A DNA stretch of 64,000 nucleotides, from positions 358,980,001-359,044,000 of the forward strand of contig OZ024740.1 of the NCBI GenBank assembly GCA_964016885.1, written 5' to 3'. Position numbers and translations under genes: made by a program. Shown here piece by piece: positions 3,633-52,695 of this stretch. Under the pieces are notes generated by a model. The model had not been told where the DNA came from. It did no database searches and saw nothing but the letters and a program-made list of their open reading frames with translations. Source of the DNA: Eledone cirrhosa (Eukaryota). Each line of letters begins with the position of its first letter. Position 1 is the first letter of the stretch.

Positions 3633-3829
3633 AGGAAAAGAGTCAAGGACCCGACAGCAGAGCTCAAGCCGTTTCGACGGATATTTCAGCCCAGAAATAG
3701 CTGTCGAAACGGCTTGGGCTCTGCCGTCGTGGTCTTGACTCTTTTACTCTTACCCACTCTACTACCCATAGTATCGAGTACTCTGGTGCGTTATGGTCCA
3801 TCTGGTTCCTTACCACACATCCTTCGTTA
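3633..3829. mobile_element. Fold-back mini-element family F1, copy 1
   Basis: About 105-bp hairpin plus about 85-bp tail between (TA)n tracts; homologous to the copies at 12590, 40728 and 52541. Confidence 0.9.
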
Positions 3830-4004
3830 TATATATGTATGTATATATATATATATATATATATATATATATATATACTATATATATAGGGATAGAGAGA
3901 CAAATAGATAGATAGATAGGTAATTGTTATATTTGAGGATGGTCATATTGCCAGTATTGTTAATTCACATTAAGAATTTTGCAGAACAAATGCATATATA
4001 TATA

Positions 4005-4167
4005 TATCTAAGGCGGGTAAAATTCCCGAGATCCATGGACGAGTTCTCTCCAGCGGTCTCTGTCCCTCATTATCGCTGCCATGTCCTGCGTCTCCAACAG
4101 ACCAGTGTCTGACCTTAGGGCATCAACATACGTTAACCTTGGTCTTCCTCTTCTAGTGTGTCCATGT
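4005..4167 (-). mobile_element. RTE LINE 3'-terminal fragment
   Basis: HGHTRRGRPRLTYVDALRSDTGLLETQDMAAIMRDRDRWRELVHGSREFYPP is nearly identical to the C-terminus of the RTE at 46.2-49.5 kb. Confidence 0.92.
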
Positions 4168-5490
4168 ATATTTGAGCCAAACTTTGTATATGAAGAATAG
4201 CAGGTCAACGTTAAATCAGTACGAAAATATAATGATTTCTCCACTGAACCAAGAACTACGTGATGTTCAAGTAAGATCGACAGTCAGACGATTACATATA
4301 TAAGAACGTCATAGTATCTTGTCAGGAACGCCATCGGCAAAATTTGTTTCTTTTATGTCAATGCATTCATCTAAAGATGTAAAAGTCATTGCATTAGTAT
4401 AGAATTCATTGAAATATAATATTTGCATTTACTGAAACGTAAGTCATTACAATATCAAATCCAGCCTATAGGTTTTATTTCATAAACTATGATAGCGATG
4501 GATAGGAAAGTTCATGAGATGTTGCGAACTTGTGGCCATACAGCTGGACGTTAACAAATCAAATATATACTTGTCAAGGTTTTGTAACTGATAATGTGTA
4601 AACGTATTTGAAACCTACACCGTATAAAAGTCTATAAAACTAAACATGCATCAGTATACATACTAAACACTTAATACGTTACGTATGTATTATTAAACAA
4701 CCAAGCTGCTGCTCGAATGAATCTATTTAATGATATTAGCGCTAATACTTATATTATGTTACAGTAGAAACGAAAATGTGAAAGAAACACAATATCCCTT
4801 CAATAATCACTGTTTATACAATGTATAGATTTGATGTATATGCTCTGAAGTATATATATATATATATGTGTGTGTGTGTGTGTGTGTGTGTGTGTGTGTG
4901 TGTGTGTGTGTGTGTGTGTGTATGTGTGTGTGTGCGTGTGTGTGTGCGTGTGTGTGTTCGTGTGTGTGTATGTGTGTGTGGTGTAGACATTGCAGATATA
5001 CCGATTCATGGGGGAATCAGTATATCTTTATTTTATAAGCTTTCTATTAACCATTTAAACTTTCTATTAACCATTTTGCGAGAGACCTAAAATTAGAATG
5101 TCAGATTTGTGTTTATAAGACTGCTTAATACGGGTCTTCTTCAACTACAACTTTAAATGCAGCTTATCATATGCATTTCTGTTATGCATAAAACACTTTA
5201 ATTCTTTCGATTGGCTCAATGGAGCTATCTCCGAAGTAATTGTATCTACGAGAACGTTATCCAGATTTTGAAATTTGAAAGCTATACGTATATTTGAATT
5301 GATAAGAGAACATTGTTATAACGTTTTCAGACCACTAATTCCCTCCCACTTACGAAATATTTATATCTAAACTAGGTATAAGACCACAAGTTCGTAAATG
5401 TGGCATATTTGTTTAAATCGACCCTAGTAACTTTAATGATGCATCAGACAGGATTTGAACTCAGAAGGCATAGTTATGTAACTAAATAAT

Positions 5491-5676
5491 TGTTTCTACT
5501 TTAGGCACAAGACAGCAATTACCCAGTGCATTACTGGTACTTTATGTTATCGACCCAGTAAGGATGAAAAGTAAAGTCAACATCGGCGAGATTTGAACTC
5601 AGATCGTAAAGGGACGTAACTATGCTGGAAAGCATGGCGTCCGACCCTCTACCGATACTGCCAATCCACTGCCATC
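5491..5676 (-). mobile_element. tRNA-derived SINE with 18-bp TSD
   Basis: A-box-like tggcagtatcgg and B-box-like gagttcaaatc on the minus strand; TSD gttatgtaactaaataat at 5473-5490 and 5677-5694. Confidence 0.9.
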
Positions 5677-5694
5677 GTTATGTAACTAAATAAT

Positions 5695-5905
5695 GGTTTG
5701 TGATTTAGGCACAATGCCAACAAATTTTTTAGGGGGGAGGGTTGATGAAATCGCATTACTGGTACTTTATTTTATCGACCCCGTTGGAATAAAAGGCAAA
5801 GCTAACCGCGGTGCGATTTGAACTCGGAACGTAAAGGGCCGTTACTCAATGCCACAAAGCATGTCATTGACTCTCCCTCCAGCTCTACTGCCAATTCACC
5901 AGCCT
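5695..5905 (-). mobile_element. tRNA-derived SINE, older variant
   Basis: Same core (ggtactttattttatcgacccc...gatttgaactc), directly adjacent to the previous copy. Confidence 0.8.
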
Positions 5906-49755: not shown

Positions 49756-51788
49756 AGATCAGGCCCATCGTATCGAGCGTGGAGGGACCACTCTACACAA
49801 TTTCATGGCTCCTAGCCAGAATACTCAAACCCATCTTAGACACCTTGCCGGGACACGTTAACAGCTTTGAGGAGGTGTTGAAGCGCCTGCATGAAATGGA
49901 TCCCGACACCAGAAGGAATAACAGATATGCCTTCAGCCTTGATGTAGTCGCTCTCTACACCTCGGTCCCGGCACTCCCGGCCGTCAATATACTGATGGAA
50001 CGCGTCCAATCCACCGACTTACACTGCTTCGGGATCACCACCACTGACATCCACCAACTCCTATCCATCGTCGTCGACAACACCTACTTCGGATTCCTTG
50101 ACCAAACATACCAACAAACCTCGGGATTGCCCATGGGATCAAGCCTATCAGGTGTGCTAGCGATCTCTTACATGGACAACCTCGAACGCAAGGCACTCAA
50201 CGCCTGCCACCCCAACGCCGTAGCCTTTTTCTCAAGGTACATGGACGATATCCTCATCCTCACATATTCCCAAGACACGGCGAACAGAATCTATGAGACG
50301 TTCAACAACACGGATGAGAACATTGACTTCAGTGTTGAACACCCCAACGAAGACGGATCACTTGCCCTCCTCGACTTCCGAATCAACATCACGGAACAGG
50401 GAAGGATCCACTGCAACTTCTACCGAAAGGCAGCTTGCAGGGATCTGTTCGTTCACCACAAGTCCGCCCTCCCTAACAGTGCCAAAAGAGGATACATCAC
50501 GAACGAGATCGCGCGAATCAAAAACAGATGCAGCGATCCCGCGGGTGGTGTCACTCATACCAAGCGATTCCTTGAGGTGCTGGAGACGAACGGGTACCCT
50601 ACCTCGATCACAGACAAAATAGGAGACACGAGACACAAGAGACAGAGAGGCACCCAAGGCAAGTGCTTCCTTAAAATTCCACATCTGGGCGAGAATACCA
50701 CCAACGCTATCCGCAAGGCTATACGGAGGGAGGGCCTCGACATCCACCTGGCCCACTCGGGCCCCTCCCTGCGAAGATGCCTCTCCAAGAAACCCGGGAA
50801 ATCTACTGACGCATGCTCCCTCAGAGACTGCCCGATACGCCATGCGAATTGTTGCCTACGCACATACGTCGTGTATAAGATAGAATGTGACAGGTGCAAC
50901 CAATACTACATAGGTAGCACAATCCGACCTTTGCACATCCGGATCAAGGAACACACTAAAACCAGGGCCTCGTCTTTCCGGAAACACATAGACAAATGCG
51001 GAAACAAAGACGGAAGACCCATTGTCACAATTCTAGCGACTGAAAGAAACGTCGGCACGTTACGTATCAATGAAGCACTTTTTATCAAACGCCTGCAACC
51101 GTAAATAAACAACCGATTAGAGAGAAGCGAAATGAGATGGCTGGTTTAAGTTAACAAACGATGTAGCAACACACAACACACGCACACACAAACGAGACAA
51201 CTACACACACACACACAATCAGTAGCATTCCACCATACGAACATACTACACTGCCAATACAGAGGAACAAGGCAACTACACACGCACAAACACACACACT
51301 CAAGCGAGACAACAACACACGCACACACACACACACACACACAGTAACATTTAACAAACAGGCAGAGAATGGACTGACAGCTAGCGCCACCCCACTCCCT
51401 CATTCGGCCGCTGACCTCTGCCCGACCGACCCCATTTCACGCGCACGCGCGCTCTGCCGAATACCTCAGATATTCAAAACAACAAACAGCGGAGGACGCG
51501 TTTCGCACCTGTCCGACAGACAACATTTACCCCGGAAAAAAAACCCAGTTGATGGATGTGAATCCGAAATATATGGGACTATTAAATCTCTCCCAAGGTA
51601 ACTCTCTCTTGTGTTGTTATTTTTATTTTATCGTTATACTCTTCCCTTCTTTCTTCTACACATTTAAACATCTTTACACACCACGCATCTCAACGTACAC
51701 CCACTTACATCTGTCTCTCCACCACCGGATCTTGTTGCCCGGAGATTTACCCATTTGCATTGTCGAGGCTTCCAAACGACTTAAAGAT
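49755..51788 (+). mobile_element. Penelope-like element (Neptune/Nematis-like), 5'-truncated, RT plus GIY-YIG
   Basis: IRPIVS, SLDVVALYTSV, GLPMGSSLS, RYMDD, FYRK, a Cys-rich linker and VVYKIEC..C...YIGST. The stop at 51102 is probably premature (paralogs read PQINN/PRINN). A degenerate hammerhead lies at 51544-51577. Confidence 0.88.
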
Positions 51789-51846
51789 ATATATATATAT
51801 ATATATATATATATATATATATATATATATATATATATATATATAT

Positions 51847-52200
51847 AAAAGATTAGAGGACATATTTAGTTGGTTCAGGTTTATTTAAATCCGTTATATA
51901 TATTTCGCTGAGGACTATGCGTTATGATGGCCTGAGTTCTTCAGACGGTAAAACCTATAAAACAATGTAATACGAAACCTTTAAGTTTGGCCAAATTTCT
52001 TAGGATCATACATTGGCCGGCCGTCGAAGAACGAACAACATACACCCGGTCGGTCCTCTGTATCAAGAAAAGAAAATTTCTCGAAGAAGTTATTGGAATT
52101 TTTCCAAATTTAAAGGCTATCATAACTGATAGTCCTCAGCGAAATATATATAACGGACTTAAATAAATCTGAACCAACTGAATATGGCCTCAGCTCTTTT
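51847..52200. mobile_element. Short PLE-terminus element with about 87-bp terminal inverted repeats
   Basis: 51847-51933 matches the reverse complement of 52114-52200; starts at a (TA)n tract. Confidence 0.8.
51891..51948 (-). ncRNA. Type I hammerhead ribozyme motif
   Basis: Minus strand: ccgt-CTGAAGA-actcaggccatcataacgcatagtcctcagc-GAAA-t-atat-a-TA-acgg. Stem III is palindromic, and stem I can extend via ggttt/aaacc across an internal loop. Confidence 0.7.
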
Positions 52201-52212
52201 ACTAATATATAA

Positions 52213-52398
52213 TTGTTTCTATTTTAGGCACAAGGCCAGCAATTACCCAGTACATTACTGGTACTTTATTTTATCGACCCCGTAAGGATGAAAGACAAAG
52301 TTAACCTCGGCGGGATTTGAATTCAGATCATAAAGGGACGTAACTCTATGCTTCAAAGCATGGTGTCCGACCCTCTACCAATACTGCCAATCCACCGC
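52213..52398 (-). mobile_element. tRNA-derived SINE
   Basis: Full-length family match, flanked by a duplicated ctaatatataat. Confidence 0.9.
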
Positions 52399-52540
52399 TA
52401 ATATATAATGCTCCGACTTGCCCCCTTTATACAGGTCGTTTAACGCTTCATTTTATCTGCTTCACAACCGAGAGAACATAATGCGATACACACATCCTTG
52501 TTCGGTTAACCCCATACTATAAATAAATATATATACATAT

Positions 52541-52695
52541 AGGAAAGGAGTCAGGACTCCGACGGCTGAGCTCCGGCCGTTTCGGTAGCCGTCGGGGTCG
52601 TGACTCTTTTCCTATTACCCACTCTATTCTAAGTATCGAGTACTCTGGTGCGTTATGGTCGACCTGGTTCCCTACTACCACACGTTCTTTGTTTT
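52541..52695. mobile_element. Fold-back mini-element family F1, copy 4 (hairpin centre deleted)
   Basis: Same tail (gagtactctggtgcgttatggtc) and outer arms as the other F1 copies; TA flanks. Confidence 0.85.

What the first reader, a model, noticed from the sequence alone, without database searches (positions are those of the whole stretch)
3633..52695. F1 family: both hairpin arms change together from copy to copy
Seen: four copies with the same layout (hairpin plus one-sided tail of about 80 bp) whose outer arms differ between copies but remain self-complementary within each: gagtcaag/cttgactc (3633), tgttcaag/cttgaaca (12590), agtatgac/gtcatact (40805), gagtcaggac/gtcgtgactc (52541). Four copies in 64 kb suggests a high genomic copy number. 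Inferred: one arm is copied from the other at or before each insertion (self-primed fold-back synthesis), or pairing is selected. The asymmetric tail argues against an ordinary MITE.
Basis: partly seen in the sequence, partly recalled or inferred. Interest (0 to 1): 0.72.

Follow-up and report, generated by a model that had tools for sequence, protein, structure and literature searches.

The report
Penelope retrotransposon stubs joined head-to-head
These hairpins are tiny head-to-head stubs of an abundant Penelope-type jumping gene, and their arms match because both are likely copied separately from the same short front end of the element's RNA at each insertion, a known structure whose inner ends here likely mark the RNA's capped start and, more rarely, its ribozyme cut site.

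Summary
The four hairpins are real, but they are neither a MITE nor a self-copying hairpin. Long elements with the same arm and 78-nt tail exist and encode a reverse transcriptase plus GIY-YIG endonuclease with the motifs of the Hydra clade of Penelope-like elements (PLEs). F1 is their shortest insertion: two inverted copies of the pseudo-LTR end, one with the tail, in (TA)n. Arm types are subfamilies. Within one young subfamily 52 of 60 centres differ and substitutions are unpaired (0 paired, 13 unpaired), so each hairpin is built at insertion and then decays; pairing is not selected. Fold-back copying fits poorly: in 12 of 60 the tail-less arm reaches at least 10 nt further in than the tailed arm. 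Likely mechanism: two primings on opposite target strands from two start sites 78 nt apart, then end-joining. Short arms stop at a TATA/Inr-like site inside the hammerhead, often with an extra G (likely cap); a minor class starts at the ribozyme cut site. The architecture is published; this scan noted dual priming and cap run-off before, on this genome and others. No RNA evidence was available.

The parts
3632..3687 (-). copy 1: inverted, tail-less copy of the PLE pseudo-LTR end (parent offsets about +7 to +60)
   Evidence: alignment to parent L093
3688..3749 (+). copy 1: direct arm, 3' half of a type I hammerhead (stem II 3' strand, GAAA, stem III, cut triplet, stem I 3' strand)
3750..3827 (+). 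copy 1: 78-nt tail (5' leader of the parent, upstream of its ATG)
12588..12648 (-). copy 2: inverted tail-less arm, reaching parent +2
12648..12706 (+). copy 2: direct arm from parent +4; 1-nt overlap at the centre
12707..12784 (+). copy 2: 78-nt tail
40861..40919 (+). copy 3: inverted tail-less arm, reaching parent +2
40806..40861 (-). copy 3: direct arm from parent +5; subfamily B, whose long form L233 carries an endonuclease region 82-84% identical to the parent protein
40728..40805 (-). copy 3: 78-nt tail
52540..52584 (-). copy 4: inverted tail-less arm, reaching parent +18, i.e. 17 nt further in than its partner
52587..52614 (+). copy 4: short direct arm from parent +35
52615..52692 (+). 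copy 4: tail (78 nt, with a 3-nt loss and a 3-nt gain)
3446..3631 (.). (CA)n/(TA)n tract left of copy 1, an example of the (TA)n target; all four copies have TA runs on both sides

Best explanation
F1 is the shortest insertion product of a Hydra-clade Penelope-like retrotransposon: two inverted copies of the element's pseudo-LTR end, only one with the 78-nt tail, which are likely made by two separate reverse transcriptions of the same RNA (or of RNAs from one source copy) and likely end-joined head to head inside (TA)n. Shown: parent, shared ends, one tail per insertion, a new centre in almost every copy, unpaired decay. Inferred steps: (1) the element's protein nicks both strands of a TA tract; (2) each 3' end primes at one of two fixed sites in the RNA, +60 and +138, both followed by TAT in the element; (3) when this happens at the 5' copy of the pseudo-LTR, the enzyme runs off the RNA's start after 60 or 138 nt and often copies the cap as an extra G; (4) the two cDNA ends are trimmed and joined with 0-2 nt of microhomology or short templated inserts. 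Priming in the 3' pseudo-LTR of a read-through RNA gives the long arms and full copies. Arms differ between copies because the copies belong to different subfamilies.
For: Parent: L056, 50 kb right of the window, has the same ends, 367-nt arms at 100% complementarity and an endonuclease frame between them. 29 of 30 best endonuclease-region loci end in the F1 arm. L091 and L093 show inverted pLTR, direct pLTR, tail, open frame of about 790 codons, UTR, pLTR; L180 is an F1 hairpin whose tail runs on into the ORF. The model of the protein (pLDDT 92.8) has telomerase RT as best PDB match, E 3.4e-8. Hydra motifs in 109 aligned proteins: RW[KR] 102, DKT 100, DKG 0, CxCx5C 105, YRDDG 106, none with two Cys between the GIY and YIG positions (definitions from PMC8557442). 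Centres: of 70 ends taken in genome order for subfamily A (71 found, one local duplicate dropped), 60 short doublets, 7 long, 3 without partner; 52 distinct centres of 60; 23 with 1-2 nt microhomology, 2 longer, 17 blunt, 18 with inserts. All 18 long doublets have the tail at exactly one outer end; in 5 of the 15 two-arm cases the tail-less arm is the longer, e.g. 1,901 and 3,128 nt against 359. Arms of one long insertion differ by 0.41% against 1.18% between insertions (17 of 18 lower); lineage variants are shared by both arms in 54 cases, split in 12. Start site: no short arm passes -4 of a T/C-A-G-T-C-C site that lies 29 nt after a TATTTAAA word; 35 of 35 held read-through arms have T at -1, yet lone arms that end at +1 and join TA carry the cap-type base in 73 of the first 100 of 255 matches against 27 (hand count); one base earlier it is 42 against 58 of 100 (Fisher p 1.5e-5). 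Some centres have the extra G on both arms with 0-2 nt between. In vitro, an anole PLE protein cuts and extends both strands and starts at two internal sites that bound the tail (PMC11167929).
Against: No RNA was seen, so start site, cap and strand are read from DNA only. The cap control weakens to p 0.13 if a recurrent two-base class (31 of 100 rows) is set aside. Pfam gives no hit for the parent protein at E 0.1 and only one weak GIY-YIG hit (E 0.014) in 20 relatives; the endonuclease call rests on motifs and a 28%-identity match to a Pfam-positive PLE of the window. 12 lineage variants are split between the arms of long doublets (7 of them in one slippery 4-nt spot), so some arms may come from different RNAs. 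Central deletion after insertion cannot be excluded copy by copy. An ORF link was shown for subfamilies A and B only; the types of copies 1, 2 and 4 are tied in by arm and tail likeness (and, for copy 2's type, a read-through pLTR, L290). The subfamily B parse was noisy (early stops at mismatches) and is not used for centre counts.
Confidence: 0.8

Rival explanations
1. Self-primed fold-back: one cDNA starts at the tail, folds on itself and is copied back to the TA-like site 78 nt short of its start; later deletions at the hairpin centre make the variety.
For: Self-priming was proposed for PLE inverted junctions (PMC3846280, passages). It predicts that arms share source variants (54 shared, 19 private paired in long doublets). 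3 of 60 centres fit its geometry; 11 of 60 have the tailed arm at least 3 nt longer.
Against: 19 of 60 short and 5 of 15 long doublets have the tail-less arm longer; 29 of 60 centres are within 2 nt of symmetric, mostly without a loop; both arms can end in the extra G; the family is young (13 substitutions in 2,780 shared sites), which leaves little time for nearly every centre to be rewritten.
Confidence: 0.1
2. F1 is a non-autonomous hairpin element (retrozyme- or SINE-like) that is transcribed and reinserted whole by the PLE protein.
For: Short doublets outnumber long ones 60 to 7; non-autonomous ribozyme elements derived from pLTRs are reported (bioRxiv 10.64898/2026.07.22.740005, passages).
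Against: An inherited hairpin would share its centre; 52 of 60 differ and no centre occurs more than 3 times. The stub lacks the TATA-like word and the 5' half of the ribozyme.
Confidence: 0.05
3. Arms are kept alike after insertion by selection for pairing or by gene conversion or template switching within the palindrome.
For: 19 private variants are present on both arms of long doublets.
Against: 0 paired against 13 (A) and 22 (B) unpaired substitutions in short doublets; 53 unpaired private variants in long ones; older copies such as copy 1 have mismatched arms. The paired variants are as expected from unsampled source copies.
Confidence: 0.03
4. A MITE or foldback DNA transposon with TA target duplication.
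For: Inverted arms, TA on both sides, high copy number.
Against: One-sided tail, variable centres, and long forms that encode RT + GIY-YIG and are cut short at the 5' side.
Confidence: 0.02

Closest known systems
Endonuclease-bearing PLE insertion unit: pLTR, adjacent inverted 5'-truncated copy, one-sided tail (Adineta vaga Pen2a, PMC3846280 passages; Fig. 2 legend of PMC8557442; D. virilis Penelope, PMC2377424 passages)
   Same: inverted end next to a direct pLTR, tail on one end only, partial tandems, palindromic junction, promoter in the pLTR
   Different: tail 78 nt rather than 30-40; most insertions are only the 60 + 138 nt stub; the papers read propose self-priming or endonuclease resolution, while the centres here point to two primings
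Hydra clade of C-terminal EN+ PLEs (PMC8557442, section 11 passage)
   Same: RW[KR], DKT, CxCx5C linker, no CCHH, CxxC and CxH beside the conserved E and N, hammerhead, (TA)n target
   Different: unit about 3.5 kb (tandem period in L097, L104) against 'generally <3 kb'; RWR in this protein; no tree against named Hydra members was built
Anolis Poseidon PAc in vitro (PMC11167929, parts 1-2 of 4 read)
   Same: both strands cut and extended, AT-rich target, two internal RT starts that bound the tail, ribozyme just upstream
   Different: another clade; that paper does not describe joining of the two cDNAs or run-off at the cap in the parts read, and found no RNA-seq reads ending at the ribozyme cut
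Type I hammerheads of PLE pLTRs, U3-A8 core variant (PMC4209133 passages)
   Same: UUGANAA core, G10.1-C11.1, short stem I, palindromic loop III, in the pLTR
   Different: long loop II (about 30 nt) that holds the inferred start site, so F1 and the pLTR-initiated RNA carry only the 3' half
LINE-1 twin priming (PMC11702581 passages)
   Same: two primings on opposite strands, inverted pieces joined with microhomology
   Different: L1 pieces are adjacent parts of one RNA; here both pieces cover the same part

Membership tests
EN+ Penelope-like element (parent) | single ORF with telomerase-like RT | tested here: met
   790-codon frame, YRDDG; best fold match TERT; Pfam RVT_1 not hit
EN+ Penelope-like element (parent) | C-terminal GIY-YIG endonuclease | tested here: met
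   VIY...YIG with downstream R, H, E, N; 28% match to the GIY-YIG part of the window's Pfam-positive PLE; Pfam itself gives no hit on this protein
EN+ Penelope-like element (parent) | pLTRs from partial tandems, inverted 5' copy, one-sided tail | tested here: met
   L091, L093, L097, L104; tail at one outer end in 18 of 18
EN+ Penelope-like element (parent) | hammerhead motif in the pLTR | tested here: met
   U3-A8 core in 84 held matches, N7 variable; fold gives stems I-III though z -0.58; Rfam no hit; cleavage not tested
Hydra clade | RWK, DKT, CxCX5C, no CCHH, CxxC and CxH motifs | tested here: met
   RWR instead of RWK in this protein and 32 of 109
Hydra clade | (TA)n targeting | tested here: met
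   tail followed by TA run in 56 of 59 parsed ends
Hydra clade | RT phylogeny with named Hydra families | not tested
   no reference Hydra sequences were held
Neptune / Nematis / Naiad | CX2-5CxxC linker and CCHH in the endonuclease; N-terminal EN for Naiad | tested here: not met
   0 of 109 with two Cys between GIY and YIG; EN is C-terminal
MITE | symmetric terminal inverted repeats, uniform internal length, transposase parent | tested here: not met
Non-LTR retrozyme | complete hammerhead in each monomer, tandem direct repeats, inherited unit | tested here: not met
   stubs lack the 5' core, are inverted, and have private centres

The most novel reading that the evidence does not exclude
The stubs are a fossil map of both 5' ends of a PLE RNA in the germ line: a capped start that lies inside the hammerhead (TATA-like word in stem II, start in loop II), so that the promoter-initiated RNA cannot cut itself, and a rarer end exactly at the ribozyme cut (+42), showing that read-through RNAs self-cleave in vivo and that the cut piece is still reverse-transcribed. 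The ribozyme would then limit full-length copying, because its cut parts both RT start sites from the ORF upstream.
Probability: 0.4. Interest if true: 0.62.

Novelty: new member of a known kind. Interest (0 to 1): 0.36.

Why it matters
The co-varying arms need no new process: they are the known inverted-pLTR-plus-tail end of PLEs at its smallest, and such repeats can be mistaken for MITEs in annotation. The value lies in the numbers: tens of thousands of independent centres speak to an open question, how PLEs form inverted ends and tails (called unresolved in PMC8557442 and PMC11167929), and favour two primings over self-priming. They also give two exact, testable RNA ends (+1 cap, +42 ribozyme cut) for a Hydra-clade element, a clade known only from sequence in the paper read.

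Tried and rejected
Canonical CUGAUGA or CUGANGA core upstream of the arm: 10 chance or chimeric matches and 0; the real core is the U3-A8 type. Neptune as clade (my first reading): rejected on motifs. The window's own PLE ORF at 49734-51104 as parent: different ends, only a weak endonuclease match. Pfam on parent and 20 relatives, PDB by sequence, Rfam on the pLTR: no useful hit. RNA: no RNA holder listed. Contigs of three public runs laid on copy 3 hold the family and show many different joints ending at 40861-40867, but contigs cannot show RNA ends and one run set may be the source sample. First arm comparison of long doublets was spoiled by alignment overhang at the centre and was redone with 40 nt trimmed. 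Mixed-parent arms (lead from e1-9539494): none among the subfamily A doublets, 1 of 77 typed pairs differing by one base; L031 joins an F1 arm to another PLE family's end, a single case. Papers: 7 searches; none listed a paper on two-cDNA head-to-head joining or cap run-off in PLEs (one search returned 0; one search returned two papers on L1 and R2), which does not show that none exists. Supplements of PMC11167929 held as text had none of four terms; its figure supplements and those of PMC8557442 (Hydra sequences) were not seen.
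Full report
Observation. The four copies are real and have one plan: (TA)n, an arm that starts TAGGAA, a centre, the reverse arm ending TTCCTA, a 78-nt tail, (TA)n. The window lies in a 3.0-Gb animal genome rich in microsatellites. Three exact end patterns give 9,665 matches and the backwards controls none; evenly spaced samples gave 14 pieces in 400 kb. Arms are more alike within a copy (0.93) than between copies (0.72), and 76 of 77 typed pairs carry the same type on both sides (this set is partly chosen by likeness).

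Parent. In the first 200 kb fetched beside the window lay L056: the same ends, arms of 367 nt at 100%, and an endonuclease frame between them. Of the 30 best loci for that frame, 29 end in the F1 arm. Extended loci L091 and L093 show the whole plan: inverted pLTR, direct pLTR, tail, an open frame of about 790 codons (ATG 95 nt after the tail), UTR, pLTR. L180 is an F1 hairpin whose tail runs on into that frame. The protein has 1,242 relatives; its model (109 sequences, pLDDT 92.8) matches telomerase RT best. Pfam misses it. Its motifs are those given for the Hydra clade of PLEs: RW[KR], DKT, CxCx5C, no CCHH, CxxC, CxH, (TA)n target. Copy 3's subfamily has its own long form, 82-84% identical in the endonuclease region (L233). 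So arm types are subfamilies of one PLE lineage.

Each hairpin is new. For the young subfamily A, ends were taken in genome order, chosen only by the outer 32 nt of the tail-less arm: 70 ends after dropping one local duplicate; 60 short doublets, 7 long, 3 without partner. 52 of 60 centres differ; 23 have 1-2 nt of microhomology, 2 more, 17 are blunt, 18 have inserts, several copied from the arm itself. Substitutions against the parent are on one arm only: 0 paired, 13 unpaired in A; 0 and 22 in B. Pairing is therefore not maintained after insertion.

Two copies from RNA, not one from the other. Fold-back needs the tailed arm to be the first and longer strand, with a loop and a short stem. 3 of 60 centres fit. 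In 20 of 60 the tail-less arm reaches at least 3 nt further in (19 after removing L215, a parsing artefact), in 12 at least 10 nt (hand count); window copy 4 is such a case. Among 18 long doublets the tail is always at one outer end only, and in 5 of 15 two-arm cases the tail-less arm is longer, up to 3,128 against 359 nt. Arms of one long insertion differ by 0.41%, against 1.18% between insertions; lineage variants are shared in 54 cases and split in 12, so both arms mostly come from one RNA or one source copy. This fits the in vitro result for an anole PLE: both strands cut and extended, two internal starts that bound the tail (PMC11167929). Both ends of F1 stop before TAT in the element, a short match to the target. 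The joining step is inferred. Later central deletion remains a rival for single copies.

Why so short. No short arm of A or B passes position -4 of one site, and the commonest end of the tail-less arm is +1 or +2 (23 of 63). The site reads T/C-A-G-T-C-C, like an initiator (consensus recalled), 29 nt after TATTTAAA in A and 31 nt after TATTTATT in B. Penelope is transcribed from its pLTR (PMC2377424 passages). Held read-through arms have T at -1 in 35 of 35 (a C variant shows), never G, but lone arms ending at +1 and joined to TA have the G-type base in 73 of the first 100 of 255 matches, against 42 of 100 one base earlier. p is 1.5e-5, or 0.13 if a recurrent two-base class in the control is set aside. 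An extra G is what copying a cap would leave (established knowledge, recalled). I read F1 as run-off from the capped 5' end when priming happens at the 5' pLTR; this is likely, not shown.

The ribozyme. The pLTR holds a type I hammerhead with the U3-A8 core reported in PLEs (Rfam no hit). The inferred start lies in its loop II, so F1 has only the 3' half. The predicted cut is between +41 and +42. In the first 100 of 197 matches for short tailed arms near TA (53 distinct places after removing overlapping rows), 21 begin exactly at +42 and 2 more may; among the 29 joined to TA without a partner arm, 14 begin there and no other position has more than 3 (hand count; the pattern favours short arms). 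This would be the trace of in vivo self-cleavage of read-through RNA, but a stall of the enzyme at the foot of stem III predicts nearly the same place. It is a minor class.

Comparison and verdict. The inverted pLTR with one-sided tail is described for PLEs (PMC3846280, PMC8557442, PMC2377424; passages read), and dual hammerheads on opposite strands were seen in 2014. Seven paper searches listed no account of two-cDNA joining or cap run-off in PLEs. Earlier notes of this scan reached the dual-priming and cap readings on this genome and others; I saw them after forming mine, and they are not independent support. What this case adds is a Hydra-clade parent, a start site inside the ribozyme and a peak at the cut site. 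Verdict: real, explained as a new family of a known kind; interest 0.36.

Noticed in passing
window 49568-51790: Another PLE (RT + GIY-YIG frame 49734-51104, Pfam-positive) with the same plan: tail and inverted end, palindromic centre near 49700, 5'-cut ORF, UTR, in (TA)n; its tail shares an 11-nt word with the F1 tail.
   Followed up: partly
window 41065-44392 (-): A relative of the F1 parent (RT 47% identical, broken endonuclease part) framed by 70-nt inverted repeats at 100%, with two 235-nt direct repeats at 41236-41706; a further endonuclease fragment at 45573-45842.
   Followed up: partly
window 337-665: A different fold-back of about 330 nt in TA, with a CUGAUGA hammerhead core in each arm; a related copy lies in L031 1850-2130.
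   Followed up: no
window 51848-52199: 86-nt inverted repeats around 180 nt, with CUGAGGA cores on both strands, beside a TA tract.
   Followed up: no
window 16025-31718: LINE-type pieces (APE endonuclease and RT frames) with two large direct duplications, 16025-18785/28410-31267 (90%) and 19876-22462/25798-28390 (94%); an MBD-like hit in the frame at 23209-24699; one more LINE at 46364-49518.
   Followed up: no
window 5477-5927, 36371-36555, 42290-42437, 52206-52398, 53944-54143, 59836-60034: A dispersed repeat of 150-200 nt, at least 7 copies in both orientations, 75-99% alike.
   Followed up: no
L031 1594-740 (-): An inverted F1 arm with part of the tail joined to the 3' end of a different PLE family that has its own CUGAAGA hammerhead: a possible two-family chimera.
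   Followed up: partly
G000, rows: 31 of 100 lone arms end one base short of +1 and then carry the same two extra bases before the TA run; no held read-through arm has them. Unexplained; a misread cap-adjacent base plus the cap is one idea.
   Followed up: partly
L056 3744 and L100: Two unrelated long doublets have a tailed arm of the same 359 nt that stops at a long T run of the pLTR, a second preferred stop.
   Followed up: no
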